Positions 26,701 through 50,384 are shown, counted from the stretch's first letter. The stretch is DNA of 64,000 bases from Dehalococcoidia bacterium (GCA_028279505.1 JANQNP010000042.1:93-64092), one strand, 5' to 3'. The notes: generated from the sequence alone by a model not told the origin. Translations and numbers: made by a program.

Positions 26701-28109
26701 CGGAGATCCCACTCACGATCACGGATGCGGCGGCGGCGATGCGCGCGGGGACGCTGACGAGCCTCGAGCTGGTCGAAGCCTGCTTCGCGCATGCCGACGC
26801 GCTGGACGGGGAGCTCGGGGTCTATCTCCACCGGCTCGACGACGACGCACGAGCCGCGGCGCGGGCGGCCGACGAGGAGCTGGCCGCCGGGACCGATCGC
26901 GGTCCGCTGCACGGGATCCCGATCGGCATCAAGGACATCATCGCAACCAACGAGGCGCCGACCACCGCGCAGAGCCTCGTGCTCGACCCGGCGTGGGGGG
27001 CTCAGGGCGATGCGCCTGTAGTGGCCCGGCTGCGCGAGGCGGGCGCGATCGTGATGGGTAAGACCTCGACGATGGAGTTCGCGATCGGGATGCCGGACGC
27101 GTCGAAGCCGTTCCCGGTGCCGCGGAATCCGTGGAACACGGACACGTGGCCCGGTGGATCTTCATCCGGTAGCGGCGCCGGCGTGGCGGCCGGATTCTTC
27201 CTCGGGGCGCTGGGGACGGACACCGGTGGCTCGGTGCGGATCCCGGCCGCGTTCTGCGGCATCAGCGGGATGAAGCAGACCTTCGGCCGCGTCCCGAAGT
27301 CCGGCTGCGCGCCGCTCGGCTACTCGCTCGACCACATCGGCCCGCTGACTCGGAGCGCGCGCGACTGCGCGGCGATGCTCGGGGTGATGGCGGGTGCTGA
27401 CGCCTCGGATCCGACGACCGCGGACGTGCCGGTGCCGGACTACCTCGCGGCGCTGACCGGAAGCGTCGAGGGCCTGCGCATCGGCGTAGAGCGGGCGAAC
27501 CACCTCGATGCTCCGGGGGTGCTCCCGGAGGCGGTGGAGGCGTTCGAGGCGGCGGTGAGCTGGTTCGCCGGTGCGGGCGCGATCCTCGATGAGGTGGAGA
27601 TTTCTCGGTACGAGGCGATCCGGAACGTCGGTCTGATCACGATGCGGGGCGAGGCGAACTCGTACCACCAGAGCGACCTGCAGTCACGCTGGAGCGACTA
27701 CGGCATGTACACGAACCGTTTCGTCGCCGGCGGGGCGTTGGTGTCGGCCTCGGACTACGTCCAGGCACAGCGATTCCGCAGCCTGGCGCGCGAGCAGATG
27801 GCGGCGCTGATGAAGCCGTTCGACGTGCTGATCATGCCGACCGCCGGGATGGGGGCGCCACTCGTCGAGGGCCTCGACGACACCTCGTTCATGGGGTGGC
27901 CGGTGTTCACACCGTTCTGGAATCCGCTGGGGCTGCCGGTGCTCTCGGTGCCGATGGGGTTCACGAACGACGGGCTTCCGCTGTCGCTGCAGATCGCCGG
28001 CAAACCGTTCGATGAGGCGACGGTCTTCCGCGTCGCCGATGCGTTCCAGCAGGCGACGGATCACCATCTGCAGGTGCCGTCGCTGGTGTCAGGTGCGGTC
28101 ACCGTCTAA
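26697..28109 (+). CDS. Amidase-signature family enzyme (GatA-like amidase), paralog 2
   Basis: ATGA overlap with paralog 1. Signature block (PGGSSSGSGAGVAAGFFLGALGTDTGGSVRIPAAFCG). Roughly half of residues are identical to paralog 1 by eye. Confidence 0.8.
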   Translation: MTEIPLTITDAAAAMRAGTLTSLELVEACFAHADALDGELGVYLHRLDDDARAAARAADEELAAGTDRGPLHGIPIGIKDIIATNEAPTTAQSLVLDPAWGAQGDAPVVARLREAGAIVMGKTSTMEFAIGMPDASKPFPVPRNPWNTDTWPGGSSSGSGAGVAAGFFLGALGTDTGGSVRIPAAFCGISGMKQTFGRVPKSGCAPLGYSLDHIGPLTRSARDCAAMLGVMAGADASDPTTADVPVPDYLAALTGSVEGLRIGVERANHLDAPGVLPEAVEAFEAAVSWFAGAGAILDEVEISRYEAIRNVGLITMRGEANSYHQSDLQSRWSDYGMYTNRFVAGGALVSASDYVQAQRFRSLAREQMAALMKPFDVLIMPTAGMGAPLVEGLDDTSFMGWPVFTPFWNPLGLPVLSVPMGFTNDGLPLSLQIAGKPFDEATVFRVADAFQQATDHHLQVPSLVSGAVTV

Positions 28110-28136
28110 GCCCTCCTCCCGCGGGGACCGACACCG

Positions 28137-28170
28137 ATGCCAAGAGAAGGGGGCGGCCGATCGGCCGCCC
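28137..28170. terminator. Intrinsic-terminator-like hairpin (12-bp GC stem, GATC loop) followed by a T-rich tract, between convergent genes
   Basis: AAGGGGGCGGCC gatc GGCCGCCCCCTT followed by CTTCTT. It can serve both convergent transcripts. Confidence 0.6.
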
Positions 28171-28209
28171 CCTTCTTCTTGTCCCGAGCGAGCGGCGGGC
28201 GCCGGCGTA

Positions 28210-29895: not shown

Positions 29896-30116
29896 CTGTG
29901 GGCTCCGCTTGAGTGGCCTCGGGTGGATGCCTCGGACGCTACCGGTCGGGGATGTCGGGGCCATGACCGGCAGGTCTCGACGAGGTGCCGTGGAGGCAAC
30001 AACCCTCGGCCGCAGCCCTCGTCAACGGAGCACCGAACCGGGAGCTTCTCTTGCTCGTCGGTGTCGGAGACCTGCGAGCAGTGAGTCGATCGGGCTCCCC
30101 GAGGAGGGTTGAACGG

Positions 30117-31202
30117 CTAGGGAGCCGGTCGGGCCTCGGTTGCTGGCGGCGCGTGCGGCGCGTCCGACTCTTGGCCGGAGAGCCATCGGGTGAGATCGGC
30201 TAGCGATGTGAAACGCCGCTCCTCGTTGTTCGTCGTTACCCACCAGCGGTCGACGGGATCTCCAGCCTCGGATGTCACGCCGCAAACGATCGGCTTCCGC
30301 TCGCCGTCGCCGCTCTCATCCTCGGTCACGTCGAACCCCGAACGGAGCAGCGCCTGACGCAGCCAGTGGTGCTCGAGGGAGTCGCCCGTCACTCGGGCTC
30401 GGCGGCCCGGGTGGGGTGTTGGCGTGAAGTGACCCGTGGCGCGGTCGAACGCGACCTCGCTGCTGGAGAACGCGTGCTCCAGCAGGCCGTTGAGGACGAG
30501 ATCCTCGGGGGCGCCGCTCTCGAGCGAGCCGTCCTCGGTGATCAGCCAGAGGACATCGGCGGTACGCAGGGCGAGATCGAGGTCGTGCGTGGTCATCAGG
30601 ATCGCCAGCCCTCGTTCAGCCGCGAGCCGCCGAAGGAGGGCGGTGAGCTCGATCCGAGACGGGAGGTCGAGGAACGCGGTCGGCTCGTCGAGCAGCAGCA
30701 CCTTCGGCTCTTGCGCCAGCGCCCGGGCGATCATGACCCGCTGGCGCTCGCCGTCGGACAGCTCGGTGACGTCGCGATGCGCGAGGTGGCCGGACTGGGT
30801 GGCCTCCATCGCCCATTCGATCGTGGTGTGGTCCTCGGGACCGAGCCGGCCGAAGTATCCGGTGTGGGGGAAGCGGCCGAGTCCGACCAGCTCGTAGGCC
30901 GAGAGGTTCGCGATCTGCACGCGGTCGGTCAGGACCACGGCCAGTCGCCGGGCCAGGTCTTCGCTGGTCAGTCCGTCAAGTTCGTCACCGTCGAGGGACA
31001 CGGTGCCGGCGAAGGAGGGCTGCACGCGCGAGAGCGTTCGGAGCAGCGTCGACTTACCGGCGCCGTTGGGGCCGAGGAGGCACGCGAACTCCCCTCGGTC
31101 GAGGGCGACGCTCACCTCGCTGAGCACCACGCGACGGCGCCGGCGCGCGCGGTAGCCGATCTCCAACGACGACAGGCTGAGTACCGGCTCGGGCGGCGCC
31201 AT
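30117..31202 (-). CDS. ABC transporter ATP-binding protein, FecE/BtuD (iron-chelate/B12) type, with about 100-aa C-terminal extension
   Basis: Walker A (GPNGAGKST), signature (LSDGERQRVMIARA). ATGA overlap with the upstream permease. Confidence 0.8.
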   Translation of the reverse strand: MAPPEPVLSLSSLEIGYRARRRRRVVLSEVSVALDRGEFACLLGPNGAGKSTLLRTLSRVQPSFAGTVSLDGDELDGLTSEDLARRLAVVLTDRVQIANLSAYELVGLGRFPHTGYFGRLGPEDHTTIEWAMEATQSGHLAHRDVTELSDGERQRVMIARALAQEPKVLLLDEPTAFLDLPSRIELTALLRRLAAERGLAILMTTHDLDLALRTADVLWLITEDGSLESGAPEDLVLNGLLEHAFSSSEVAFDRATGHFTPTPHPGRRARVTGDSLEHHWLRQALLRSGFDVTEDESGDGERKPIVCGVTSEAGDPVDRWWVTTNNEERRFTSLADLTRWLSGQESDAPHAPPATEARPAP

Positions 31203-32323
31203 CAGCTACCCCAGCCTCGGCGCATGCGGAGGAGCACCCAGAAGGCGATCGGGCCACCGACGATCGCGGTGGCCGCGTTCACGGGGAGGGTGAGGTTGCT
31301 GTTCGGCATCTCGGCCAGCAGCCCGCAGCCGAGCGCGACCGAGGCGCCGGTGAGGGCGCTCCCCGGCACCAGGATCCGGTGATCGGCGGAACCGAAGATG
31401 CCGCGGGTGATGTGTGGGATCGCGATCCCGAGGAAGGCGATGGGTCCGGCGAAGGCGACGACGGCGCCTGCGAGGATCGAGGCGCTGGTCAGCGTCAGCG
31501 TTCGGGCTCGTCGCACGTTCAAGCCCATGCTCCGCGCGTAGTTCTCGCCCATCAGCAGCGCGTTGAGCTGCTTCATGGAGAGCGTGGCGACCACCGTTCC
31601 CGTGCCAACCGCGGTTGCGAAGAGCGGTACATCGCCCCAGCGGACCCGCTGGAAGCTCCCGAATCCCCACTCGACGAAGACCCGGGTCTGGTTCGGGTCG
31701 GCGAAGAAGACAAGGACGGTGACGAGCGCCCCGATCAGGGCGGAGAGGACGACGCCGAGCAGGAGCACGATCACCATGTCGCGCACGATGCTGGCGACCA
31801 CGAGCATGGCGAGCAGGATGACGCCCGCCCCGAGCGCGGCGCCGAAGACGAGGCCGACGCTGGAGAGGGCCTGTGCGACGCCGCTCGCCGCCGCGCCGTC
31901 ACGGTAGAGGCCGACCGTCAGGCCGGGCAGCACGATGATGACGAGTGCGGCACCGAGGCTGGCGCCCGAGACGACCCCGAGGGTGTACGGACTCGCGAGT
32001 GGGTTTCGGAAGACGGCCTGCATCTGGAGGCCCGCCAGGCCGAGGGCGACGCCAACCAGTGTCGCGGTGATCACTCGAGGAAGCCGGATGTCTAGAACGA
32101 TCGTCGTCCAGGCGTCCCGCTCGGCCGGACGGCCGAGCAGGATGCGCGCCACCTCGTCCCAGGGGACGCGGACGGACGACCAGCTCAGCGACAGGAGCAC
32201 CGCGAGGATGAACACCGCGATGAGGAGTGAGAAGGCCACGAGCGTCCGGGTCCGGCCCCGCGTGCGCGCCGTCTCGATGTTCGGCCGCTGACGGAGCGAG
32301 ACCGCGTCTGTTGACGAGGTCAC
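31202..32323 (-). CDS. FecCD-family ABC permease (iron-chelate/cobalamin type)
   Basis: GTG 32323 overlaps the regulator's TGA (GTGA). FecCD-like helices (LVGVALGLAGLQMQAVFRNPLASPYTLGVVSGASLG). The tool ORF extends 126 codons upstream through an Arg-rich nonsense region. Confidence 0.75.
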   Translation of the reverse strand: MTSSTDAVSLRQRPNIETARTRGRTRTLVAFSLLIAVFILAVLLSLSWSSVRVPWDEVARILLGRPAERDAWTTIVLDIRLPRVITATLVGVALGLAGLQMQAVFRNPLASPYTLGVVSGASLGAALVIIVLPGLTVGLYRDGAAASGVAQALSSVGLVFGAALGAGVILLAMLVVASIVRDMVIVLLLGVVLSALIGALVTVLVFFADPNQTRVFVEWGFGSFQRVRWGDVPLFATAVGTGTVVATLSMKQLNALLMGENYARSMGLNVRRARTLTLTSASILAGAVVAFAGPIAFLGIAIPHITRGIFGSADHRILVPGSALTGASVALGCGLLAEMPNSNLTLPVNAATAIVGGPIAFWVLLRMRRGWGS

Positions 32324-33888
32324 GGCTGCTCCATCCGCACGTGGAACAGCGGCTCGTGCTCCGGAAGTACCTCGGGCGAGATCAGCGCGATCAGGTCTGC
32401 CAGCATCAGGTCGACGCGGACCCCTCCGGTGTGGAGCACGTCGCGACCGCGCCCGAAGCGGTGGAACGCCGCACCTCGCCGAGTGGCCGCGATCTGGCCG
32501 TAGACCTCCGCGGCCGCGGGGGTTGGCGAGGTGGTCTCCCAGATCGAGCTGTACCAGCAGTCGGCGTCCGCCCCGAATGCCAGCGCCTCGTCGAGATCGA
32601 TCTCGCCGAGGGTTCCCGCCTCGTTGAGCCGGGGCGAGACGCCTGCCTCGCTCAGGACGTCCTCGCCGCCGGCGTCGCGCACCAGGCCGGGCAGGAGCCA
32701 ATGCGGCCAGAAGCTGTCCCAGCTGCCGCGGTCGTTCGGGTGGCCGATCAGCACTCGCGGCCGCTGGCGGCCTCGTCGCGCGCGCTGTCTGAGGTCCAGG
32801 TAGCGGGCCTCGATCGCGGCGAACTGGCGGTTCGCCTTGGCCTCGAGATTGAAGAAGAGCGAGGCGAACTTCAGCTGCTCCGCGCAGGCGAGCGGGGGCT
32901 CGACGGCGGGGAGGAAGAAGACGGTGGGGAACCCTCGGTTCCGCCGGTTACGCCGCCATCCATGGTTCAGGCCGTAGAAGTAGACGTCGGGCTCGAGAGC
33001 CCTGATGCGGGCGATCCGCTCGTCCTCGGTTCCCGGCAAGCTCGACTCCGAGACGATCTCGTCGACCCGCGCCGAAAGCGCGCCGAGGTGGTCGATTCCC
33101 GAGGGACGGGTCCGCCATCCGAGGAGGGCGTCGGCGACCTCGAGGAACTCGATCGCGCCGAGGAGGCGGGCCTCGTCGTGCCAGACGCGCCGCACCGGCA
33201 CCTCGATGACCGTGGCGCCGCTGAGCGGCCCGACCAACCGCGGCGGCGGCGTCCCACGTTGTACGAGGACGTAGACGTCCGGGTTCCGCATCCCCGGTCG
33301 CTCGATCTCGCTACTGACGGTGAGCACCTTGTAGCTGCGCTCGTACCGGACTCGCCAGCGCTTCGCGTACCGCGGCGAGACGCGGTCGGGGAAGTAGTCG
33401 ACCGACGGGTCGTAGCGTTCCACCGGCCGGTCCAGATTCTCGGACGGCGGTGCCTGCGGACGGAGCAGTCCGAGCGTGAACTCGAGGATCGCGTCACGCC
33501 CCACGGATTCGTCGAGAAGATTGGTGACCGCCGTCTGGACCGCTCGGACCTCGTGCGGGTCCAACCCGCCGGCGTCGAGTTTCGAGATCTCACGGGCCAG
33601 ACCCCGGCTCACGAGCGGGACGTTTTCCCGACGGACTTCGCCGGGAGACATCAGCTGCTCCATCACCGGGTGTGGCAGCAGCCCGGCGCGCTCGATCAGG
33701 ATCCTCGCATCGACCTCGAGGGCCAGCGCGAGACGACCGAGCATCTCCACGGTCGCCGGCTTCCGTCCGTTCTCGAGTTTGGACAGATGTCCGTCCGAGA
33801 CGCCCGACGCTTCAGCCAACCTGCTCAGGGTGAAGCCGCGCTCCTTTCGCAGGTCGCGCAACATGGCCCCGAGTTCAGAGTGGTTCAA
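32320..33888 (-). CDS. One-component transcriptional regulator: N-terminal XRE-family HTH fused to a class III periplasmic-binding-protein (FecB/BtuF-like) domain
   Basis: HTH present (MLRDLRKERGFTLSRLAEASGVSDGHLSKLENGRKPATVEMLGRLALAL). No signal peptide. The C-terminal about 420 aa are paralogous to the adjacent secreted SBPs (DYFPDRVSPRYAKRWRVRYERSYKVLTVS; ...EVLPEHEPLFHVRMEQP). TTG 33888 has an AAGAGG RBS; an alternative ATG lies at 33864. Confidence 0.65.
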   Translation of the reverse strand: MNHSELGAMLRDLRKERGFTLSRLAEASGVSDGHLSKLENGRKPATVEMLGRLALALEVDARILIERAGLLPHPVMEQLMSPGEVRRENVPLVSRGLAREISKLDAGGLDPHEVRAVQTAVTNLLDESVGRDAILEFTLGLLRPQAPPSENLDRPVERYDPSVDYFPDRVSPRYAKRWRVRYERSYKVLTVSSEIERPGMRNPDVYVLVQRGTPPPRLVGPLSGATVIEVPVRRVWHDEARLLGAIEFLEVADALLGWRTRPSGIDHLGALSARVDEIVSESSLPGTEDERIARIRALEPDVYFYGLNHGWRRNRRNRGFPTVFFLPAVEPPLACAEQLKFASLFFNLEAKANRQFAAIEARYLDLRQRARRGRQRPRVLIGHPNDRGSWDSFWPHWLLPGLVRDAGGEDVLSEAGVSPRLNEAGTLGEIDLDEALAFGADADCWYSSIWETTSPTPAAAEVYGQIAATRRGAAFHRFGRGRDVLHTGGVRVDLMLADLIALISPEVLPEHEPLFHVRMEQP

Positions 33889-33895
33889 CTGAACC
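33882..33895. promoter_or_regulatory. 14-bp palindrome GGTTCAacTGAACC overlapping the regulator start, in a 39-bp divergent intergenic region. Candidate autoregulatory operator.
   Basis: Perfect 6-bp arms with a 2-bp spacer. An AT-rich TATCGATA palindrome follows at about 33917-33924, upstream of the divergent SBP gene. Confidence 0.3.
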
Positions 33896-33927
33896 TCTTT
33901 CTGTCGGTTGGATCGGCTTATCGATAG

Positions 33928-35283
33928 TTGGTATCAGTACAGGCCATCATGCCGCAGGCGCAAGTCGCGCCGAGACGGAAGAAGGTCTTTGTGCGTCCAC
34001 GCCTCCCACTGTTGATCGGCCTCGGCCTGTTGCTTGGCCTGTTGATCGCCTGCAGCGATGACGATTCGCCGGAGGCGACTCCCGAGCCGACGGAGCGCGC
34101 CGAGCCCACGTCGACGGCCGCCGCGGCGACGCCGACCGCCGCGCCGCCAGCGCCGATCACCAGCAACCCCCAGGAGTGTGTGACGGACTTCCAGGACGGG
34201 ACGGACTACTTCCCCGACAAGGTGGAGGCGATCCACGCCGAGGGCTGGAGTGTGCGCTACGAGGGGCACTACAAGGTCTTGACCGTTGAGCCCGTGCCCA
34301 ACGTCCAGAACGCAAGGCAGGACACCTACGTCCTGGCGCAGTGTGGGGCGCCGGCGCCCGACCTCTCCGGCGATCTCGCGGACGCCCACGTGATCCCGAT
34401 CCCGGCGCAGAGCTTCTGGACCGCCTCGGGCAGCGGCTGGTTCGTGGCGCTCGAGACGCTCGGGCTGTCCGACGCCGTCCTGGGTGCGAACGTCCGCGCC
34501 GCCGGGTTGGAGTACCTCCCGAACATCAACCGCCGCTTCGAGGACGGGCTCGCGATCCCGGCGCGTGCCTCGAACAGCTTCGAGCCGATCCTCGAGGCCG
34601 AGCCGGAGCTCTTCCACGTCGCGTTCAGCTATGAGCTGACCGACCAGGCCCGGGACCTGGGCCTGAACGGAGTGACCTACAACTCGTTCTGGGAGCCGCC
34701 GCTCGGGAGCGCCGAGGAGATCAAGTTCGTCTCACTCTTCTTCAACGCCGAGGCGCGCGCGAACGAGGTCCTCGAACCGGTGATCGCGAACTACGAGGCG
34801 CTGCGCCAGCAGGTGGCGGATGCCGAGTCCGAGGATCCGACCGTCCTCTTCGGCTCGATCAACAACTCTGGTCTCTGGGCGACGCAGCCGGCCAACCGGA
34901 TCGACATCCGGTTGATCGAGGACGCGGGCGGAATCCCGATCCTCCAGCGCGAGGTGACTGACGTACCGCTGAACTCGCCGCTGCCGCTCGAGCGCGTCGT
35001 CGACCTCGGCGCGGACGCCGACATCTGGATCGACAACACCTACTTCGCGGACAGCCGGTTGGGCGATACCGTCGCGGGCTCGCTCGCCTACCAGCCGCTG
35101 AACAGCTCATTCGAGGCGCTGGCCGAGGGGCAGGCGATCCACCAGTTCGCGCGCGGGACCGACATCTTCGCGACCGGACAGAGCTTCCGCGTGGACATCC
35201 TGCTGCGCGACCTCGTCAGCGTGTTCCACCCGGAGCTGTTGCCGGAGCATGAGTTCGTCTGGCACACGCGACTCGAGCCGTAA
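33928..35283 (+). CDS. Class III periplasmic-binding lipoprotein (iron-chelate/B12-type SBP) with an N-terminal add-on domain
   Basis: Lipoprotein signal (RPRLPLLIGLGLLLGLLIACSDDDS). PBP core (IPIPAQSFWTASGSGWFVALETLGLSDAVLG). Paralogous to the regulator's C-terminal domain and to the SBP at 48724-50058. An alternative ATG lies at 33949. Confidence 0.7.
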   Translation: MVSVQAIMPQAQVAPRRKKVFVRPRLPLLIGLGLLLGLLIACSDDDSPEATPEPTERAEPTSTAAAATPTAAPPAPITSNPQECVTDFQDGTDYFPDKVEAIHAEGWSVRYEGHYKVLTVEPVPNVQNARQDTYVLAQCGAPAPDLSGDLADAHVIPIPAQSFWTASGSGWFVALETLGLSDAVLGANVRAAGLEYLPNINRRFEDGLAIPARASNSFEPILEAEPELFHVAFSYELTDQARDLGLNGVTYNSFWEPPLGSAEEIKFVSLFFNAEARANEVLEPVIANYEALRQQVADAESEDPTVLFGSINNSGLWATQPANRIDIRLIEDAGGIPILQREVTDVPLNSPLPLERVVDLGADADIWIDNTYFADSRLGDTVAGSLAYQPLNSSFEALAEGQAIHQFARGTDIFATGQSFRVDILLRDLVSVFHPELLPEHEFVWHTRLEP

Positions 35284-36305
35284 TGGAGGTCCGGCCGTAC
35301 GACCCCGCGCACCTCCGCGACGCGGCGGCGTTGCTCGCGCAGGCGCACGAAACTCGACTCGCGGGCCTGCCGGCGTTGCCGGCGGCCTTCCGCGATCCAG
35401 AGGAGGCTCGCCCGGTCCTCGAGGCGTTCGCGGGGCGATCGACGTGCTCCGGGTACAGCGCCTTCCGAGGCGGGCGCCTCGTGGGGTTCTTGCTTGCGAC
35501 CAGGCATCTTCCCGCCCCGTCGCAGCCGTTGAGCGCCTACGTCATGCCGCGCTCGACCTGGACGCCGACGCAAGCGTGGGCGGTCGGCGAGGACACCGAT
35601 CCTCGGACGGTATTCGAGGCGCTTTACGGCGCGGTCGCCGATGACGCGGTAGCGGAGGGTTACCTCAACCAGCAGGTCGAGGTGAACGCGGGCGATCCGG
35701 CGGAGGGGTGGCTCCTCGATCTGGGGTTCACGCGGAGCAGTGTGTACGCGGTGCTCCCGATCGGGGGTGGAGTGACCGGGGAGGATGCCGGCGGCGGTGC
35801 GGAGGCACCGGAGATCCGGTCAGCGCGTACCGGTGACGAAGAGCGCATCGTGGCGGTCGGCGAACTCGAGGCGGGGCACCACCGGACCTCGCCGGTCTTT
35901 CGGCCGGACCTCTCGCGGGACTACCGCGAGGCGTCCCTGGACTCGGCGGCCGATTTGATCGAGGCCGAGGGCCGCATGGCGTTCCTGGCGTTCGTGGACG
36001 GCGACTTCGTTGGTGGGATTCTCGCGAACGCGATGGGGAACGGGCGCCCGTTGCTTCGCCCGGCGAACAGCCTGTACATCGGCAGCACCGCCGTCTCGCC
36101 GGGACACCGTGGACGCGGCGTCGGTCAGGCGCTGCTCCGGGCGCTGCTGGCGGCAGCCCGATCACAGGGCTTCGAGCACGCCGTCCTCAACTACTCGCCC
36201 GCGAACGCGTCCGCACGACGGTTCTGGCACAAGATGGGGTTCCAGCCCCTGATGACGGCCTTCCAGCGGAGAATCGACCCGCGAATCGCATGGGGAGCGA
36301 GCTAG
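35283..36305 (+). CDS. GNAT-family N-acetyltransferase (two GNAT-like halves), translationally coupled to the SBP gene
   Basis: TAATG overlap. GNAT motif A region (VSPGHRGRGVGQALLRALLAAA). Confidence 0.65.
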   Translation: MEVRPYDPAHLRDAAALLAQAHETRLAGLPALPAAFRDPEEARPVLEAFAGRSTCSGYSAFRGGRLVGFLLATRHLPAPSQPLSAYVMPRSTWTPTQAWAVGEDTDPRTVFEALYGAVADDAVAEGYLNQQVEVNAGDPAEGWLLDLGFTRSSVYAVLPIGGGVTGEDAGGGAEAPEIRSARTGDEERIVAVGELEAGHHRTSPVFRPDLSRDYREASLDSAADLIEAEGRMAFLAFVDGDFVGGILANAMGNGRPLLRPANSLYIGSTAVSPGHRGRGVGQALLRALLAAARSQGFEHAVLNYSPANASARRFWHKMGFQPLMTAFQRRIDPRIAWGAS

Positions 36306-45169: not shown

Positions 45170-46450
45170 TCAGTACAGCGGCAGCAGGTAGGAGGGGGCA
45201 GGCGGGAAGAGTGCATGGAGCACCGGGCGCGCCCTCGCACTGACCCCGATCCGGTAGGGGAACTGTGCCTCCAGCTGAGGCAGACCCGCGCGGCCGAACA
45301 GCAGCTCGAGGAAGGTGGCGTCGGCGAAGCGCGCGTCACCCTCGTGGATGCCGGTCTGGCGCCAGGGTTCCACTGTCACGCGGCCGTGATCGAACTGGAG
45401 CTCGACGCCGGGCTCGCGGTAGCGGCCGATCCGCAGGGCGCCGTGGTAGCCGGCCTCGTTGGATTGCGCGAGGCGCTCCTCCAGCGCGGGCGCGATGTGA
45501 GCCACGAAGGCTGGCACGTCCGGGATGCGCACGTACCAAGCACCGCGACGCAGCGGGGAGCCGAGCGTCTCGAACTGACCGAACAGATGCGGGCACGAGC
45601 TGAACGCCGGGTGATCCTCTCCCAGCCAGCCGAACGACCAGCTCGGGCGTTCGGAGACCTCGAGGCCGAGGGCGCCCTCGGCATGTTCCAACAACCATCG
45701 GGCGAGCGAGCCGGTCGCGAGGGACCAGGGCGTGGCCGGCGCGACCTCGAACGCGTCGATCGCGAGAGTGAGCGGGTGGATGGAGATGAACCCGACGGGG
45801 CGCGTCGGGGAGGTCAGGATGAAGAGCCGACGCGCCCACGCGTTTCGCGGGTCTCGCTTGAGCAGTTCGTACTCCCAGTGATCGCGTGTCCGCAGGTAGC
45901 TCACGCGGAGGCGCGGCGCGCCGGACTGGAAGGTCTGTTCGATGAAGTCGAGGTCGTCCGGCGTGGCCTCCCGCAGGGCGTAGGGCGCCTGCTCCGCCGG
46001 TACGGTCTGGGCGTACTCCCGGAAGAGCCGCCGGCCGTTGTGCTTGTCCAACGGCAGCTCGTACCCAAACTGGGTGTAGTACCAGGGGATGCCGTTGACG
46101 ACGGTCGCCAGCTCGCCGGCGGCGGCGCTCCAGTCGTGCATGACATCCGTCTGGCGACGAATCAGGCCGCGCCGGCGATAGTCGACGCGGGTGGAAACGT
46201 GCTCGATCTCCCCCACGGGAAACTCGACGCCGCCGTACGCCCAGCGGTGATGCGAGAAGTGCTGCGACGACACGATCCGGCCGGTCGCGACCTCCTCCAC
46301 CACGGTCATCTCGGTACCGGAGAACGTCGGGTGTGGCCGCTCGAGCAGATCGCGAAGCTGGTGTTCGTCAGCCGTGGATCGGGCTTCGCCGTGCGTTTCT
46401 CGATGCAGGTCGATGAGCGCCGGAACGTCGTCGGCCGCGGCCCGCCGCAT
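45170..46450 (-). CDS. GNAT-family acetyltransferase with a large C-terminal extension (Eis-like architecture)
   Basis: ATG 46450 (MRRAAADDVPALIDLHRETHGE). GNAT core (VEEVATGRIVSSQHF...VDYRRRGLIRRQ). About 426 aa. Confidence 0.5.
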   Translation of the reverse strand: MRRAAADDVPALIDLHRETHGEARSTADEHQLRDLLERPHPTFSGTEMTVVEEVATGRIVSSQHFSHHRWAYGGVEFPVGEIEHVSTRVDYRRRGLIRRQTDVMHDWSAAAGELATVVNGIPWYYTQFGYELPLDKHNGRRLFREYAQTVPAEQAPYALREATPDDLDFIEQTFQSGAPRLRVSYLRTRDHWEYELLKRDPRNAWARRLFILTSPTRPVGFISIHPLTLAIDAFEVAPATPWSLATGSLARWLLEHAEGALGLEVSERPSWSFGWLGEDHPAFSSCPHLFGQFETLGSPLRRGAWYVRIPDVPAFVAHIAPALEERLAQSNEAGYHGALRIGRYREPGVELQFDHGRVTVEPWRQTGIHEGDARFADATFLELLFGRAGLPQLEAQFPYRIGVSARARPVLHALFPPAPSYLLPLY

Positions 46451-46530
46451 CAGCAGGCCCTCGCCCACGTCACCGAGATCACGGGGTTCCACCTCAGGGC
46501 TCACGACCGACTCTCCCTTCGCGATGACGC

Positions 46531-47544
46531 TCAAGACGCAGCGGGTGCCATTACCCGCGCGATGAGGTCGCTAATCGAAGTCACCGTCTCGTCGGACGGG
46601 AGGCGCCAGCCGTCGCCCTCGACGCAAACGTCGGCGGATTCGCCTCGTGCGGCCGGGCGCACCTCGAACCCCAGGCGCGTCAGCGCCCGCACCGTCCAGA
46701 GGCGCCGAACGCCCTCGTCGCCGCCGACGCGAAGCGTCCCCCTGGTGGCCTCTGGCGAGACGCGGAAGCCGCCCGCCTCGTGTTCGAAGACCAGCCGGTC
46801 GTCGGAGAACTCCTCGGAGAGGACGCCGGTGAGCGCGATGTCCTCGGGCGGTGCGGTGATCAGCTCACCGGACTGACGGATGAGCCAGGCAGTGTCGGCC
46901 GTGCGCAGCGCGAGCTCGAGGTCATGGGTGGACATCAGCACGGCGATGCCCGCGCTGTGCGTGAGGTCGCGGAGCAAGGCCGTCAGGCGCACACGATGCG
47001 CGACGTCGAGGAAGGCGGTGGGTTCGTCGAGGAGCATCACGCGCGGGGACTGCGCCACCGCGCGAGCGATCAGCACCCGCTGTCGTTCGCCGTCGCTCAG
47101 GCTCGTGATCGGACGTTCGACGAGATGCTCGCAGCGGGTGACCGCGATCGACTCCTCGACGATGCGATGGTCCTCGGCGGAGAGCCGGCCGTGCCACCCG
47201 GTGAACGGGTGGCGGCCCAGCCGCACGACGTCGAGGCCGGTCAGGTGGCGCGCGAAGGTGCGCTCGGTCAGGACGAGCGAGATCGTGCGAGCGCGGGCGA
47301 TCCCGGAGAGGCGGGTGACACCGACACCGTCGAGTTCGACGCCGCCGCTGAGCGCCGGCTGGAGCCCAGCGAGCGTGCGCATCAGCGTGGACTTGCCGGC
47401 GCCGTTGATCCCGAGGAGGCAGGCGAACTCCCCAGGCCGCAACGCGGCCGTGGCCTCCCGCACCACCTCGGTGGTCTGTCGCCCGGAGCGGTAGCCGGCG
47501 GTGAGTCGATCGGTGCGGAGCGGTGCGATCTCCTCGGCGGTCAC
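46531..47544 (-). CDS. ABC transporter ATP-binding protein, FecE/BtuD type, with C-terminal extension
   Basis: GTG 47544 overlaps the permease TGA (GTGA). Walker A (GINGAGKST), signature (LSDGERQRVLIARA). Confidence 0.8.
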   Translation of the reverse strand: MTAEEIAPLRTDRLTAGYRSGRQTTEVVREATAALRPGEFACLLGINGAGKSTLMRTLAGLQPALSGGVELDGVGVTRLSGIARARTISLVLTERTFARHLTGLDVVRLGRHPFTGWHGRLSAEDHRIVEESIAVTRCEHLVERPITSLSDGERQRVLIARAVAQSPRVMLLDEPTAFLDVAHRVRLTALLRDLTHSAGIAVLMSTHDLELALRTADTAWLIRQSGELITAPPEDIALTGVLSEEFSDDRLVFEHEAGGFRVSPEATRGTLRVGGDEGVRRLWTVRALTRLGFEVRPAARGESADVCVEGDGWRLPSDETVTSISDLIARVMAPAAS

Positions 47545-48638
47545 AGGTCGGCAGTCCCGCTCTCGCGAGCGGACCTCAGGAGGACCCACACGACGACGGG
47601 CGCACCGAAGAGCGCCGTTGCCGCGTTGATCGGCAGCGTCGCGTTCCGGCCCGGCATCTGCGCCAACGCTCCGCACAGGCAGGCCAGCGCGACGCCGATG
47701 AGGATGCAGGCCGGGAAGAGCAGCCGCTGGTCCGCGGTCCTCAGGACCCCACGGGCCAAGTGGGGTACCGCGAGGCCGATGAAGCCGATGGGGCCGCAGA
47801 ACGACGTCACGACTCCGGCGATCAGCGCGGCGGAGAGCATCGTGACCAGCCGCAGCCGGAAGACCGACACACCGACCGAGGCGGCGTACTGGTCGCCCAA
47901 CAGCATGGCGTTCAGGCCTTTGGTGCCGATCGCACCGGCGCTGACGCCGATCAGCACGATCGCCGCGAACGCCGGCAACTGATCTCGCGTCACGCCCTGG
48001 AACGAGCCAAACGTCCACACGGAGAAGGCCTGCACGGACTCCGGCGTGGAGAAGTAGACCAGGATGCTCACGATGGAGTAGGAGAACGCGCCGACGGCCA
48101 CGCCGACGATCAAGACCGTCGCGACGTTCCGGAACCACGACGCCACGACGAGCATGACGGAGAGGACCGCCATCGCTCCGATACTGGCCGCGAAGACGAT
48201 GATGAGGTTCCGCTCAAGGCCCACGCCCGCGAGCAAGCCACCACTCGCGCTGACGCCGGCCGACAGGATCACGAAGCCAACCCCGAGTGACGCTCCGGAC
48301 GAGACGCCGAGGATGTATGGATCAGCAAGGCCGTTCCGGAACAGCGTCTGCATCTGCAGGCCAGCGACCCCGAGGGACCCACCGACGAGCGCGGCGGTGG
48401 CCGCTCGAGGTACCCGCAACTCGGTGACGATCGGTCCCCAGACCGGGTTCTCTACCGTGCCTCCGGTGAGCACCGTGAAGACTGCCCGGGGCGGGATGAG
48501 CACCGAACCAACAGCGAGGGCGACCACGAGCCCCGCCCCAGCGAGGACCGTGAGGACGATGAAGGTGATCGTCAATCGCAGGGTCGCGCCGCCGCGTACG
48601 CGATCGGGAGCGGTGCGACGTTGGCGTACGAGGTGCAC
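47541..48638 (-). CDS. FecCD-family ABC permease
   Basis: FecCD-like helices (LVGGSLGVAGLQMQTLFRNGLADPYILGVSSGASLG). GTG start at 48638. Confidence 0.8.
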   Translation of the reverse strand: MHLVRQRRTAPDRVRGGATLRLTITFIVLTVLAGAGLVVALAVGSVLIPPRAVFTVLTGGTVENPVWGPIVTELRVPRAATAALVGGSLGVAGLQMQTLFRNGLADPYILGVSSGASLGVGFVILSAGVSASGGLLAGVGLERNLIIVFAASIGAMAVLSVMLVVASWFRNVATVLIVGVAVGAFSYSIVSILVYFSTPESVQAFSVWTFGSFQGVTRDQLPAFAAIVLIGVSAGAIGTKGLNAMLLGDQYAASVGVSVFRLRLVTMLSAALIAGVVTSFCGPIGFIGLAVPHLARGVLRTADQRLLFPACILIGVALACLCGALAQMPGRNATLPINAATALFGAPVVVWVLLRSARESGTADL

Positions 48639-48723
48639 AAGTACCCCTCACGCAAGGCGCCATCGAGAGGAGCGGAGCGGCGGGCGGAGTTCCGCCCGCT
48701 GCTCCGCTAGTACGTGGGGCCTC

Positions 48724-50058
48724 CTACTGACCCGGGAAGGGGCTGATCCCCATGTAGGTGAGCGTGTGATCCGGCACCAGCTCCGGGTACACCTGGGCCA
48801 CGATGTCCTGCAGCAAGACGTCAGGGCGCAGCGCTCCCGAGTAGAAGTACTCGTAGACGCCGTCGCGCACGCTCACGCCTTCGGCGTCGTTGGAGATGAT
48901 CTGGTTCTCCTGGAACGCGCGGAACGAGGGCATCAGCGGTCCGGTGTACTTCTCACCCGGCCAGCTGAACGAGACGAGCCAGTCGGCTTCCGCGCCGGCT
49001 TCGAAGACCTGCTCGATTGACCACCGTTCCAGGCCTAGCGGGGCCGTTGGGTCAGCGATCACGTTGACCAGTCCTGCGTCCTCGAGCATCTCCGCCTGCC
49101 AGCCGTTGCGGGCGACGGTGCACTCGCCGTTCGTCCCACACTGGGCGAAGATCACGGTCGGCTGGTCCGCCTGTGCACTCGCCTGCGCGGCGAGCTCGCG
49201 GTAGTCATCCAGCACGTTGCCGAGCACCTCGTTCGCCCGCACCTCCTGGTTGAAGGGGAGTGCGATCACCTTCGCCCACTCGGCTCTGCCCAGGACGGTG
49301 GTCGCACCGGAGGTGAGTGTCGGGACGGTTGGGATGCCGAGTTCTGCGAGCTGCTCCACGCCAGCCAGCGCCGCCTCGCTGCTGAGGAACAACAACATGA
49401 CGTCGGGATCCTGGGCCGCGACGGCCTCGAAGTCCATGTTCTGGGCGCCGAAGGCGGCGCCGTTCGGGACGATCTCGCCGGCCTCGATGCGAGCATCGAT
49501 GTCTTCCGGGAAGACGCTGGGGAAGCCGTGCGTGACGAGGTTGTCGGTGAGACCGAGCGCGACGGCGGAAGCGAGGTCATCGTTCCGGTTGAGGCCGAAC
49601 GTCGTCGCTGGGACCTCGATCAGCGTCGCGTCCGCGAGGTCGCCCGTCAGCTCAGGCGCCGGCGTCCCGCACTGGACCATGACCACGACCTGGGGCGCCA
49701 TGCCCTCGAATTTAAGGTCGGTGCGGACGGTCAGGACTTTGTAGTTGTTCTCGTACTGGATCTCGAAGTCGGTGGCTTCCTCGACGGTGATCTTGTCGGG
49801 GAAGTAGTCGATCTCGGAGTCGTACGACTCGACGCAGCCCTCGGTGATGTTGGTCGTTGGAGCCTCAGCGGCCGGGGTCGTCGCCGTAGCCTCGGCGGTT
49901 GCCGTTGCGGTGGGTTCGGAGGGAGCGGGAGTGGAGGTCGCCGTCGCCTCATCGTCTGAATCGTCGCCACAGGCGACGAAGGCGATGGCCACGACCACCG
50001 CGGCGATACCTACAGTCCACCGAGCGAGAGCACGGCGATACGAAGGAGTGACAGACAT
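48724..50058 (-). CDS. Class III periplasmic-binding lipoprotein (iron-chelate/B12-type SBP), paralog of 33928-35283
   Basis: ATG 50058 is preceded by GGAAAGG. Lipobox (IAAVVVAIAFVACGDDSDD). Shared motifs DYFPDK...YKVLTV and ELVPDH. Confidence 0.7.
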   Translation of the reverse strand: MSVTPSYRRALARWTVGIAAVVVAIAFVACGDDSDDEATATSTPAPSEPTATATAEATATTPAAEAPTTNITEGCVESYDSEIDYFPDKITVEEATDFEIQYENNYKVLTVRTDLKFEGMAPQVVVMVQCGTPAPELTGDLADATLIEVPATTFGLNRNDDLASAVALGLTDNLVTHGFPSVFPEDIDARIEAGEIVPNGAAFGAQNMDFEAVAAQDPDVMLLFLSSEAALAGVEQLAELGIPTVPTLTSGATTVLGRAEWAKVIALPFNQEVRANEVLGNVLDDYRELAAQASAQADQPTVIFAQCGTNGECTVARNGWQAEMLEDAGLVNVIADPTAPLGLERWSIEQVFEAGAEADWLVSFSWPGEKYTGPLMPSFRAFQENQIISNDAEGVSVRDGVYEYFYSGALRPDVLLQDIVAQVYPELVPDHTLTYMGISPFPGQ

Positions 50059-50094
50059 CTGACGCCTTTCCGGCAGAACAGTTAATTGAGACGG

Positions 50095-50124
50095 AGTATC
50101 ATGCACTAGCAGATACTTAGTATC
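50095..50124. promoter_or_regulatory. Operator-like cluster of GATACT/AGTATC hexamers upstream of the SBP-permease-ATPase operon (Fur-box-like)
   Basis: AGTATC at 50095. 13-bp palindrome GATACTtAGTATC at 50112-50124. AT-rich island 35-70 bp upstream of the SBP start codon. Confidence 0.35.
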
Positions 50125-50384
50125 AATGTGCGCTCTCGCCTTCGACCCCGAGGTCCATCGGATGGCCGGAGCTCGCGCTCACGTAGCCAGGTGCCTCATC
50201 GAGCGGCGGCAGAGCCAATACTGCGGTCCACGAAGGCGGCCTAAGAGTTTCTGAGAGTAGTGGCGGGGGACCTTGGTGCCGGCCGGGCGCAGAGCCCTTG
50301 CGACCACTGCCAACGACGGCTTCCTCCGGACCCAAGAAGAGAACGTCGGCGGACCGGCGGGCGTGGTGCCTGGCGGGACTGGCG

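What the first reader, a model, noticed from the sequence alone, without database searches (positions are those of the whole stretch)
32320..33888. Cytoplasmic one-component regulator: XRE-type HTH fused to a class III periplasmic-binding-protein domain paralogous to the adjacent transporter's SBP
The protein has an N-terminal XRE helix-turn-helix and no signal peptide. It is followed by a full FecB/BtuF-like binding domain that shares distinctive motifs with the secreted SBP encoded divergently 40 bp away. Its TGA overlaps the GTG of the FecCD permease gene (GTGA). It sits in the position normally held by the SBP gene. This suggests the binding-protein fold is reused as an intracellular ligand sensor, presumably for a metal-chelate, and controls its own importer. 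AraC-PBP fusions of this logic are known (for example Bacillus Btr), but an XRE-HTH version embedded in the transporter operon is unusual.
Basis: partly seen in the sequence, partly recalled or inferred. Interest (0 to 1): 0.7.

Follow-up and report, generated by a model that had tools for sequence, protein, structure and literature searches.

The report
Transporter binding protein turned gene regulator
A rare bacterial protein joins a DNA-binding head to a copy of the binding protein that normally sits outside the cell and feeds a metal-chelate importer; the copy has lost its export signal and a residue needed to dock on the transporter, so it most likely senses the imported compound inside the cell and controls the importer genes next to it.

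Summary
The ORF 32320-33888 (-) encodes 522 aa. It has an XRE-type HTH (Pfam HTH_31/HTH_3, E 5e-13), an ~80-aa linker found only in these fusions, and a class III substrate-binding-protein (SBP) domain. That domain is 34% identical (E 3e-60) to the lipoprotein SBP encoded divergently. Its stop overlaps the GTG of a FecCD permease gene, which is followed by an ABC ATPase gene.

New evidence points to a cytoplasmic, non-transport role:
- There is no signal peptide or membrane segment.
- The family's covarying cysteine pair is absent.
- The N-lobe permease-docking glutamate (BtuF Glu72 equivalent, 99% conserved in 167 SBP domains) is replaced in all five fusion proteins.
- dN/dS is 0.09-0.22 in every part of the protein.

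The fusion is old, arose once (bootstrap 189/200) and is very rare: 3 clusters among 1.84 billion representatives, with those of known source in Chloroflexota/Dehalococcoidia MAGs. In both lineages with context it lies beside an importer with a related SBP.

The control region is about 100 bp, not 40. It carries a Fur-box-like palindrome shared with a second paralogous importer and a fur operon, plus two further palindromes. The ligand, the operator and the direction of control are unknown. I class it as a new variant of the Btr-type logic.

The parts
32320..33888 (-). Gene for the XRE-HTH / class III SBP-domain fusion protein (522 aa, TTG start; stop codon at 32320-32322)
   Evidence: ORF. 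Pfam HTH_31/HTH_3 plus a weak Peripla_BP_2 match. Orthologues are 82-83% identical in L001, L002 and L004-L006. The TTG is kept in all orthologues, whereas the downstream ATG (33864) is not.
33688..33876 (-). XRE/Cro-C1-type helix-turn-helix domain (aa 5-67)
   Evidence: HTH_31 E 5.2e-13, HTH_3 E 1.6e-12. The best solved relative is ClgR 3f51, E 3.9e-10. The model has five helices with pLDDT 79-93. dN/dS is about 0.09-0.10.
33439..33678 (-). Linker (aa 71-150), predicted helical at low confidence; candidate dimerisation and signal-transmission module
   Evidence: pLDDT is 37-56, with helices at 74-80, 98-105, 111-123 and 130-142. No family hit. No relatives outside the fusion proteins. dN/dS is about 0.2, so it is constrained.
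32323..33438 (-). Class III (cluster A) substrate-binding-protein domain (aa 151-522), without signal peptide. The N-lobe docking Glu is replaced by Ala293 (codon 33010-33012), and the C-lobe position is Asp433.
   Evidence: 34% identity to SBP1, E 3e-60. Foldseek hits to YiuA, 4hn9, TM0189 and CeuE at E about 1e-10. A long inter-lobe helix spans 349-372. Docking-residue analysis. dN/dS is about 0.13-0.14.
31202..32323 (-). FecCD-family (BtuC-like) permease gene; its GTG start overlaps the regulator's TGA (GTGA)
   Evidence: Pfam FecCD E 3.7e-72. Sequence read. The same 4-nt overlap is present in L001 and L002.
30117..31202 (-). ABC ATPase gene of the importer, with a C-terminal extension of about 100 aa
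   Evidence: Pfam ABC_tran E 7.6e-31. The best NCBIfam hits are the corrinoid, ferric-dicitrate and heme importer ATPases.
33991..35283 (+). SBP1: lipoprotein substrate-binding protein of the same divergent 'DYFP' class III family (longest ORF starts at 33928; likely start GTG 33991)
   Evidence: Signal peptide with lipobox LLIAC. Both docking Glu and both Cys are present. The upstream frame is not kept in L001.
35283..36305 (+). GNAT acetyltransferase gene, overlapping the end of the SBP1 gene by one base
   Evidence: Pfam Acetyltransf_1 E 3.9e-20. Synteny is kept in L001 and L002.
33957..33971 (.). Palindrome (a), GGCGCGACTTGCGCC. It is invariant in five orthologous loci and lies between box (b) and the SBP1 ribosome-binding site. 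It is a candidate operator of the fusion protein, or a 5'-UTR hairpin.
   Evidence: 15 of 15 columns are invariant while dS is 0.6-1.0 in the flanking gene. No close second copy exists in the window. It shares only the CGC-N5-GCG core with the ClgR site.
33922..33936 (.). Palindrome (b), TGATACcaaCTATCG: a Fur-box-like site at the centre of the divergent control region
   Evidence: TGATACNNNGTATCA with up to 2 mismatches gives 4 sites in the window against 0.20 expected, and 0 of 100 shuffles reach 4. The site is kept in L001, L002, L004 and L006. Similar sites lie near the regulator gene in L003 and L028.
33882..33895 (.). Palindrome (c), GGTTCAACTGAACC, overlapping the TTG start codon (33886-33888) of the regulator gene; the second candidate operator
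   Evidence: The left part, GGTTCAGTTG, is invariant, and the right arm varies among orthologues.
33977..33985 (+). GGAAGAAGG, the likely ribosome-binding site of SBP1, 5 nt before GTG 33991
   Evidence: Invariant block ACCTTCTTCC in alignment A3. Sequence read.
45170..50058 (-). Second, paralogous importer operon in the classical order: SBP2 (48724-50058), FecCD permease (47541-48638), ABC ATPase (46531 to about 47540), GNAT (45170-46534)
   Evidence: Pfam. SBP2 is 32% identical to SBP1, E 1e-47. Lipoprotein signal AFVAC.
50087..50125 (.). Two Fur-box-like palindromes (50087-50101 and 50111-50125), 29-67 nt upstream of the SBP2 start
37909..39206 (+). Fur-box-like palindrome (37909-37923) upstream of a Glyoxalase_3 gene (38015-38713) and a Fur-family regulator gene (38775-39206); the likely regulator acting on box (b)
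   Evidence: Pfam FUR E 2e-23. The best NCBIfam hit is ferric uptake regulator, ahead of PerR and Zur. Site found.

Best explanation
The protein is a soluble, cytoplasmic one-component transcription regulator. Its sensor is a class III substrate-binding-protein domain recruited long ago from the transporter's own SBP family.

Proposed working:
1. The lipoprotein SBP1 captures a metal-chelate-type substrate outside the cell.
2. The BtuCD-type permease and ATPase, translated from the same mRNA as the regulator, import it.
3. Inside the cell the substrate, or its metal-free form, is bound in the cleft of the regulator's SBP domain.
4. Through the helical linker this changes how the N-terminal XRE HTH, presumably acting as a dimer, binds a palindrome in the ~100-bp divergent control region.
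5. That sets transcription of sbp1-gnat in one direction and of regulator-permease-ATPase in the other.
6. A Fur-family repressor acting on the central TGATAC-N3-GTATCA box probably adds a metal-limitation gate.

Shown here: the domain architecture, cytoplasmic location, loss of transport-specific features, selection, single origin, rarity, conserved linkage to the importer, and the conserved DNA elements.

Inferred: ligand binding, which palindrome is bound, dimerisation by the linker, the Fur assignment, and the sign of control. I lean about 60:40 to induction by the substrate, by analogy with Btr and lac-type logic.
For: Architecture:
- HTH above the Pfam cut-offs.
- SBP domain 34% identical to SBP1.
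- Confident model with two lobes joined by one long helix, and exclusively class III SBP fold matches.

Cytoplasmic, non-transport role:
- No hydrophobic segment in any of five fusion proteins.
- The Cys upstream of the DYFP motif and the VQCG Cys covary perfectly in the family (55 C/C, 24 neither, 0 mixed). All fusions lack both.
- The N-lobe Glu that aligns with BtuF Glu72 is E in 99% of 167 SBP domains but A/A/R/A/T in the fusions. The C-lobe Glu (BtuF Glu202) is D/E/D/E/T.
- These glutamates form the salt bridges to the permease and are indispensable in FecB, FhuD2 and FeuA (PMC3741162).
- All other family-wide conserved residues are retained.

Functional gene: dN/dS is 0.09-0.10 (HTH), about 0.2 (linker) and 0.13-0.14 (SBP domain) at dS 0.6-1.0.

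One old origin: the fused domains form a clade in 189 of 200 bootstraps, with 0.9-1.2 substitutions per site between lineages.

Linkage to the importer:
- The same gene order occurs in L001, L002 and L004.
- In the distant lineage L028 the regulator gene is divergent from a complete SBP-FecCD-ATPase operon whose SBP is 36% identical to the fused domain.

Control region:
- Three conserved palindromes.
- The Fur-like box is shared with SBP2 and a fur operon.

Precedent: Btr, an AraC DNA-binding domain joined to an SBP-like domain homologous to FeuA, activates feuABC on binding bacillibactin and works next to a Fur site (PMC3333878).
Against: - No ligand is known for any member of this SBP family, and no solved structure is close enough for sequence search to find.
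- I could not inspect the binding cleft in the model, so retention of ligand binding rests on overall conservation only.
- Class III SBPs are normally monomers and move little on binding, so how binding would reach the HTH is unclear. The linker is modelled with low confidence.
- No palindrome could be assigned to the regulator:
  - (c) is partly coding and imperfectly conserved.
  - (a) has no second copy in the window and could act as an RNA hairpin.
  - Neither is evident upstream of the distant members L003 and L028.
- In L003 no permease gene follows the regulator gene, but that contig is only 1.9 kb.
- About a quarter of the secreted family members scored (24 of 79 motif pairs) also lack the cysteine pair, so that feature is not specific.
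Confidence: 0.6

Rival explanations
1. The SBP-like domain no longer binds a small ligand. It serves as an oligomerisation or protein-protein interaction module, for example contacting the cytoplasmic face of the importer or the ATPase's C-terminal extension. The regulator would then report transporter activity, or simply be a constitutive or auto-repressor.
For: - Ligand binding is not shown.
- The regulator gene is translationally coupled to the permease and ATPase genes.
- The ATPase has an unexplained extension of about 100 aa.
- A docking residue has changed, so surfaces have been remodelled.
Against: - Nearly all residues conserved across the whole SBP family, including those not needed for a mere scaffold, are retained after divergence to 36-43% identity between fusion lineages.
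- dN/dS of the domain is as low as that of the HTH.
- In L028 the regulator gene is not in the permease operon.
Confidence: 0.15
2. The protein is a cytoplasmic cargo acceptor or chaperone first and a regulator second. It takes the imported chelate from the permease exit and hands it on for metal release or modification (the GNAT), with the HTH giving feedback.
For: - Co-translation with the permease and ATPase.
- A GNAT gene is conserved next to both paralogous importers.
- A high-affinity binding fold is retained.
Against: - No precedent is known to me.
- A regulator is expected at far lower copy number than the cargo flux.
- In L028 the gene is separate from the transporter operon and no GNAT gene is nearby.
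Confidence: 0.08
3. It is a membrane-anchored one-component regulator, like RodZ- or ToxR-type proteins, with a cytoplasmic HTH and an extracytoplasmic SBP domain that senses the external substrate.
For: XRE-HTH proteins with one membrane helix and an outer domain exist (my own knowledge, e.g. RodZ). Transmembrane transcription regulators are widespread (PMC10269533, title and abstract seen).
Against: - No segment between HTH and SBP domain reaches membrane-helix hydrophobicity in any of five fusions: the maximum is 1.34, against more than 2.1 for the SBP signal peptides.
- The disulfide pair and the docking Glu typical of exported members are lost.
Confidence: 0.03
4. It is an artefact or a decaying gene: a frameshift or misassembly joining an XRE gene to an SBP gene, or an ordinary SBP with a miscalled start.
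For: A truncated 187-aa variant with an internal deletion (P0029) exists in some assemblies.
Against: - The same uninterrupted ORF occurs in at least six independent assemblies and three deep lineages.
- Purifying selection acts on every part.
- No relic signal peptide lies between the domains.
Confidence: 0.02

Closest known systems
Btr (YbbB) of Bacillus subtilis, the AraC-type siderophore sensor with an SBP-like domain (PMC3333878)
   Same: - A DNA-binding domain at the N-terminus and a C-terminal ligand domain homologous to the class III SBP of the importer it controls (FeuA).
- Encoded next to that importer.
- Works alongside a Fur site.
- The logic is that the imported ferric siderophore is sensed in the cytoplasm by a copy of the binding protein.
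   Different: - The DNA-binding domain here is an XRE/Cro-C1 HTH, not AraC; no HTH_18 hit.
- An ~80-aa linker unique to these fusions is present.
- The SBP domain belongs to a divergent ~370-aa 'DYFP' family.
- The gene sits in the SBP slot of the operon, overlapping the permease gene.
- The host is Chloroflexota.
- Candidate sites are palindromes, whereas Btr binds a direct repeat.
- Ligand and sign of control are unknown.
ClgR and other small XRE-family regulators (ClgR structure 3f51; SinR, DdrO)
   Same: These are the best sequence matches of the HTH (E 3.9e-10; NCBIfam ClgR). Palindrome (a) shares the CGC-N5-GCG core and spacing of the ClgR site WNNWMGCYNNNRGCGWWS.
   Different: ClgR is about 110 aa with no sensor domain. 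The flanking and Y/R positions of its consensus are not matched. The score is far below the ClgR equivalog cut-off (32 against 170 bits).
Class III (cluster A) transport SBPs: BtuF, FhuD2, FeuA, CeuE, YiuA
   Same: Same fold. The fused domain is a member of one of their sub-families by sequence.
   Different: No signal peptide or lipid anchor. The N-lobe docking Glu is lost. The domain is fused to an HTH.
LacI/GalR (class I PBP fold) and LysR (class II PBP fold) regulators; XRE-cupin regulators such as PsdR
   Same: The general principle is a cytoplasmic regulator whose effector domain has a periplasmic-binding-protein fold. In XRE-cupins, an XRE HTH carries a C-terminal small-molecule sensor (PMC10965056 abstract; the nearest HTH-only relatives are XRE-cupins).
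   Different: The PBP fold class, the HTH type, or both differ. Those families are huge and ancient, whereas this one has three known clusters.

Membership tests
XRE / Cro-C1 HTH family (Pfam HTH_3, HTH_31) | Profile match above the curated gathering score | tested here: met
   HTH_31 scores 49.5 bits (cut-off 27), HTH_3 47.7 (cut-off 23) and HTH_19 31.8 (cut-off 30.2), all at aa 5-69.
XRE / Cro-C1 HTH family (Pfam HTH_3, HTH_31) | Five-helix bundle fold | tested here: met
   The model has helices at 5-16, 21-28, 32-39, 47-56 and 61-67, with pLDDT 79-93. Sequence matches to solved XRE proteins: ClgR, SinR, DdrOC.
Class III / cluster A substrate-binding proteins (Pfam Peripla_BP_2) | Profile match above the gathering score | tested here: not met
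   24.8 bits against a cut-off of 27.5. SBP1 gets no Pfam hit at all. A family profile does reach BtuF, IsdE and YiuA at E 1e-8 to 1e-11, so this is a divergent sub-family.
Class III / cluster A substrate-binding proteins (Pfam Peripla_BP_2) | Two alpha/beta lobes joined by a single long helix | tested here: met
   The model has a 24-residue helix at 349-372 between two beta/alpha lobes. Foldseek matches are all class III SBPs at probability 1.0.
Class III / cluster A substrate-binding proteins, as transport components | Signal peptide or lipoprotein anchor | tested here: not met
   The hydropathy maximum is 1.25 in the first 160 aa and there is no lipobox. SBP1 and SBP2 have LLIAC and AFVAC.
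Class III / cluster A substrate-binding proteins, as transport components | One conserved glutamate on each lobe that pairs with a permease arginine (BtuF Glu72/Glu202) | tested here: not met
   The N-lobe position is Ala293 (A/A/R/A/T across the fusions, against E in 99% of SBP domains). The C-lobe position is Asp433 (D/E/D/E/T). The role of these residues is taken from PMC3741162.
Btr-type siderophore sensors (AraC DNA-binding domain plus SBP-like domain) | AraC-type DNA-binding domain | tested here: not met
   No AraC/HTH_18 match. The N-terminus is an XRE HTH.
Btr-type siderophore sensors (AraC DNA-binding domain plus SBP-like domain) | C-terminal domain homologous to the SBP of the importer encoded next to it | tested here: met
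   34% identity to SBP1. In L028, 36% identity to the adjacent SBP.
Btr-type siderophore sensors (AraC DNA-binding domain plus SBP-like domain) | Ligand-dependent control of the importer promoter | not testable with these tools
   Needs EMSA or reporter assays with candidate ligands.
Transmembrane one-component regulators (RodZ/ToxR-like) | A membrane-spanning helix between the HTH and the sensor domain | tested here: not met
   No 19-residue window above 1.34 in the first 160 aa of any fusion.
ClgR | Equivalog-level profile score and a small size of about 110 aa | tested here: not met
   NF041677 scores 32 bits against a cut-off of 170. The protein is 522 aa.
Fur regulon (for box b) | A palindromic operator repeated upstream of metal-uptake genes and of fur itself | tested here: inconclusive
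   There are 4 sites against 0.20 expected, all intergenic: the SBP1/regulator region, SBP2 (two sites) and the glyoxalase-fur operon. The core TGATA-N5-TATCA matches the 7-1-7 reading of the Fur box as I recall it. Binding by the Fur-family protein was not tested.

The most novel reading that the evidence does not exclude
The fusion protein is a cytoplasmic-side binding protein of a BtuCD-type importer. Made from the same mRNA as the permease and ATPase, it would receive the metal chelate as it leaves the transporter, pass it on to downstream processing (the conserved GNAT), and convert its own occupancy directly into transcription. That would physically couple transport flux to gene control, something not described for ABC importers.
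Probability: 0.08. Interest if true: 0.85.

Novelty: new variant of a known kind. Interest (0 to 1): 0.55.

Why it matters
**A second, independent recruitment.** A class III transporter binding protein has been taken into the cytoplasm as a transcriptional sensor on a different DNA-binding scaffold (XRE instead of AraC). This supports the idea that reusing the transporter's own receptor as the intracellular sensor is a general evolutionary solution.

**A visible conversion.** The family records the molecular steps. The signal peptide, the disulfide pair and the permease-docking glutamate are lost, while the rest of the fold is kept. The docking-glutamate test could be used to flag other SBP domains that have left transport duty.

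**A practical route to the ligand.** The regulator and SBP1/SBP2 offer a handle on an uncharacterised SBP family from uncultured Chloroflexota, including a sponge-associated MAG. They could also provide a compact biosensor module.

It does not bear on a long-standing open question, and the rarity of the architecture limits its reach.

Tried and rejected
- **Ordinary SBP or membrane-anchored sensor.** Rejected by hydropathy scans of five fusions against SBP controls.
- **Recent duplicate of the adjacent SBP.** Rejected. SBP1 is not among the seven nearest relatives of the fused domain, and the fusions form their own old clade.
- **TGATAC-N3-GTATCA box as the regulator's own operator.** This was attractive because a similar site lies upstream of the 41%-identical P0007 gene. 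I rejected it in favour of a general Fur-type site. The box also precedes SBP operons that have no fusion (L001:3049; a perfect box at L029:4891), the second importer, and the fur operon.
- **Palindrome (a) as a ClgR-type site.** Only the CGC-N5-GCG core fits, so I keep it as a lead, not a finding.
- **Searches for (a)- or (c)-like sites elsewhere in the window.** They gave nothing beyond chance.
- **Inverted repeats upstream of P0007 and P0030.** They show no shared motif with (a) or (c).
- **Origin of the linker.** A search with the N-terminal 160 aa found only XRE-cupin HTHs and the truncated P0029.
- **More fusion loci.** The scan of genome contigs gave only three close orthologues, and the scan of metagenome contigs gave 80 SBP loci and no fusion.
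- **AlphaFold-database fold search for annotated fusions.** The library was not available.
- **Literature searches for an XRE plus class III SBP regulator.** Nothing found. A hit on a 'novel heme one-component switch' turned out to be a LuxR-PAS protein.
- **First tree attempt.** It timed out and was redone on 74 domains.
- **Two Pfam calls.** They failed on wrong frames before correction.


Full report
**1. What is in the sequence**

The ORF 32320-33888 on the minus strand encodes 522 aa from a TTG. Its last codons read GAG CAG CCG TGA, and the GTG inside CCGTGA starts a 373-aa FecCD-family permease (31202-32323, Pfam E 3.7e-72). That gene is followed, again with overlap, by an ABC ATPase gene (30117-31202).

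On the other strand lie a 430-451-aa protein (33928/33991-35283) and a GNAT acetyltransferase gene (35283-36305).

The N-terminus of the 522-aa protein matches HTH_31 (49.5 bits), HTH_3 (47.7) and HTH_19 (31.8), all above their gathering scores. Its best solved relatives are ClgR, SinR and DdrO. The rest matches Peripla_BP_2 only weakly (24.8 bits, cut-off 27.5). It aligns over 382 residues with the divergent neighbour at 34% identity (E 3e-60).

**2. Fold**

I modelled the protein with AlphaFold, using an alignment of 23 family members. Mean pLDDT is 80.7.

| Region | Confidence and structure |
|---|---|
| aa 1-70 | Confident five-helix HTH |
| aa 81-150 | Low-confidence, partly helical linker |
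| aa 155-522 | Confident two-lobe alpha/beta domain with a 24-residue connecting helix at 349-372 |

Foldseek against the PDB returns only class III (cluster A) binding proteins: YiuA, 4hn9, TM0189, CeuE, HtsA, FhuD2 and BtuF, at E about 1e-10 to 1e-7 and probability 1.0. A profile of the family also reaches IsdE, YiuA and BtuF by sequence.

**3. Location**

No fusion protein has a hydrophobic stretch that could serve as a signal peptide or membrane helix. The Kyte-Doolittle 19-residue maximum in the first 160 aa is 0.76-1.34. The two secreted paralogues in the window score 2.13 and 2.15 and carry lipoboxes (LLIAC, AFVAC).

**4. Signs that the domain has left transport duty**

*(a) Cysteine pair.* In the SBP family, a Cys just upstream of the DYFP motif and the Cys of the VQCG motif covary perfectly. 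There are 55 proteins with both, 24 with neither and none mixed, which is the pattern of a disulfide. All fusions lack both. This fits a reducing compartment but is not specific, because some secreted members also lack the pair.

*(b) Docking glutamates.* This is the stronger sign. Among 167 SBP domains, two glutamates are 99% and 98% conserved. They align with the glutamates of the 'E..v..l.PD' motif of IsdE, YiuA, Lmo2184 and 4hn9. They also align with positions 72 and 202 of E. coli BtuF. I wrote the BtuF sequence from memory, but its numbering reproduces the published Glu72/Glu202 exactly.

According to PMC3741162 these glutamates form the salt bridges to the permease arginines. The paper says they are indispensable in FecB, FhuD2 and FeuA. 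It writes Glu74/Glu202 for BtuF; Glu72 is the number I recall from the BtuF literature.

| Position | Secreted SBP domains | Five fusion proteins | Window protein |
|---|---|---|---|
| N-lobe Glu (BtuF Glu72) | E in 99% | A, A, R, A, T | Ala293, codon 33010-33012 |
| C-lobe Glu (BtuF Glu202) | E in 98% | D, E, D, E, T | Asp433 |

SBP1 and SBP2 keep both glutamates. All other family-wide conserved positions are kept in the fusions.

**5. A working gene**

Against three orthologues, dN/dS is 0.09-0.10 for the HTH, about 0.2 for the linker and 0.13-0.14 for the SBP domain, at dS 0.6-1.0.

**6. Distribution and origin**

- An exhaustive HMMER pass over 1.84 billion representatives found only three clusters in which the match runs from the HTH through the SBP domain: the window's clade (P0002), P0007 and P0030.
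- P0030 was called with a late start. The ORF in L028 extends upstream and encodes the whole HTH.
- Among 185,579 species genomes, the fusion turned up in three Dehalococcoidia/Chloroflexi MAGs. One is a complete 2.73-Mb chromosome and one is a sponge-associated bin. The window is therefore most likely Chloroflexota, class Dehalococcoidia.
- A scan of JGI metagenomes gave 80 SBP loci and no further fusion.
- In a neighbour-joining tree of 74 domains, the five fused domains form a clade in 189 of 200 bootstraps. Distances between the three lineages are 0.9-1.2 substitutions per site.
- The adjacent SBP1 is not among the nearest relatives of the fused domain.

The fusion thus arose once, long ago, and has been kept.

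**7. Linkage to an importer**

- L001, L002 and L004 share the order GNAT <- SBP <-> regulator -> FecCD -> ATPase, with the same 4-nt overlap.
- In the distant lineage L028, the regulator gene stands alone. It is divergent from a complete SBP-FecCD-ATPase operon whose SBP belongs to the same family (36% identity to the fused domain) and carries a lipobox.
- The P0007 contig is too short to tell.
- The window also holds a second paralogous importer in the classical order SBP2-FecCD-ATPase-GNAT (45170-50058, minus strand). This shows that the regulator gene in the first operon does occupy the slot an SBP gene normally holds.

**8. The control region**

The longest SBP1 ORF starts 40 bp from the regulator gene, but that upstream frame is broken in L001. 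A GTG at 33991 gives a canonical lipoprotein signal, and an invariant GGAAGAAGG precedes it. The region is therefore about 102 bp.

Across five orthologous loci the invariant blocks are:
- the SBP1 ribosome-binding site;
- (a) GGCGCGACTTGCGCC (33957-33971), invariant in 15 of 15 columns;
- (b) most of TGATAC-N4-TATC (33922-33936);
Its right arm lies in codons 2-3 and varies.

*Motif (b).* TGATACNNNGTATCA with up to two mismatches occurs four times in the window against 0.20 expected, and 0 of 100 shuffles reach four. All four sites are intergenic:
- the SBP1/regulator region;
- two sites 29-67 nt upstream of SBP2;
- one site upstream of a Glyoxalase_3 gene followed by a Fur-family gene whose best NCBIfam match is Fur.

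The motif also lies:
- 49 nt before a second SBP gene in L001;
- in the SBP/regulator intergenic region of L028;
- upstream of the P0007 gene;
- as a perfect copy about 110 nt before a double-SBP gene in L029, a locus with no fusion.

Its core, TGATA-N5-TATCA, is that of the 7-1-7 Fur box as I recall it. I therefore read (b) as the site of the Fur-family repressor and not of the fusion protein. That in turn suggests a metal, probably iron, chelate as cargo.

*Motifs (a) and (c).* These remain the candidates for the XRE-SBP protein. Motif (a) is the better conserved and shares the CGC-N5-GCG core of the site of ClgR, the closest HTH relative, but not the rest of the consensus. It could equally be a 5'-UTR hairpin. 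Motif (c) overlaps the regulator's own start codon.

**9. Mechanism**

The most likely reading (confidence 0.6) is a cytoplasmic one-component regulator that senses the imported compound with a domesticated copy of the transporter's receptor. It would control the two divergent operons, with a Fur-type gate on top.

The direction of control is not determined. I lean to substrate induction by analogy with Btr, which activates feuABC when it binds ferric bacillibactin (PMC3333878).

The rivals are given with their probabilities in the rival-explanations section. They are a ligand-independent scaffold or partner of the importer, a cytoplasmic cargo acceptor, a membrane-anchored sensor, and an artefact.

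**10. Comparison and novelty**

It works like Btr but is not a member of that family, because the AraC domain, a defining feature, is absent. It is an XRE-family protein by its HTH and a class III SBP by fold. As a transport SBP it fails two defining features: the export signal and the N-lobe docking glutamate.

Literature searches found no description of an XRE plus class III SBP regulator. I could not query domain-architecture databases, so unrelated fusions of this type may exist.

I rate it a new variant of a known kind, with interest 0.55. It is a neat and rare case with a clear evolutionary signature and testable predictions, but it does not change current understanding.

Noticed in passing
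window 45170-50125: A second importer operon of the same divergent SBP family sits about 11 kb from the first, on the minus strand: SBP2 (48724-50058), FecCD permease (47541-48638), ATPase (46531 to about 47540) and a 454-aa GNAT (45170-46534). Two Fur-box-like palindromes lie upstream. Both importers end in or sit next to a GNAT gene, whose role is unknown.
   Followed up: partly
window 37909-39206: A Fur-box-like palindrome (37909-37923) precedes a Glyoxalase_3 gene (38015-38713) and a Fur-family gene (38775-39206). This looks like an autoregulated fur operon and defines a small local regulon with the two importers.
   Followed up: partly
window 36406-37130: A 121-aa protein very rich in His and Asp (HADHAHAHGDGCGH...), with no Pfam hit, overlaps or abuts an ArsR/SmtB metalloregulator gene (36699-37130). 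This is probably a metal-binding or metal-resistance pair.
   Followed up: no
window 41577-45152: A 1191-aa ORF on the minus strand fuses two ABC exporter halves (ABC_membrane plus ABC_tran, twice). It lies between the two importers. L001 has two separate half-transporter genes next to its importers. It may be a chelator exporter or an IrtAB/YbtPQ-like system.
   Followed up: no
proteins P0004-P0006, P0027, P0028, P0008 (loci L008, L009, L029): Some relatives are lipoproteins of 730-909 aa. P0004-P0006, P0027 and P0028 carry two tandem SBP domains of this family. P0004 and P0006 also have N-terminal VEVPVDRVVE-type repeats. P0008 joins a different N-terminal region to one domain of this family. 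These are among the closest relatives of the fused domain.
   Followed up: no
SBP family alignment (A1; 174 proteins): A Cys upstream of the DYFP motif and the Cys of VQCG covary perfectly: 55 proteins have both, 24 have neither, none is mixed. This implies a disulfide in most secreted members and a disulfide-free sub-group.
   Followed up: yes
protein P0029 (187 aa, 8 member sequences): A shortened version of the fusion, with the HTH joined directly to the last ~130 residues of the SBP domain, occurs in several assemblies. It is either a deletion derivative or an assembly collapse.
   Followed up: no
window 30117-30420 (ATPase C-terminus): The importer ATPase has a C-terminal extension of about 100 aa beyond the ABC domain, as in the long archaeal-type corrinoid ATPases (best NCBIfam hit PRK09536). 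It may be a regulatory domain.
   Followed up: no
window 33957-33971: The perfect 15-nt palindrome GGCGCGACTTGCGCC is invariant in five orthologous loci although synonymous sites nearby are close to saturation. As RNA it would form a 5-bp GC hairpin in the SBP1 leader.
   Followed up: partly
window 18844-29964: Upstream of the importer lies a peptide-type ABC transporter (SBP_bac_5, two BPD_transp_1 permeases, an ATPase with an oligo_HPY domain). It is followed by an Amidase-family gene (25252-26700) and a second ORF (26697-28109) that I read as amidase-like from its sequence but did not scan. A 584-aa asparaginase-like protein follows. This may be a nitrogen or amide scavenging cluster.
   Followed up: no
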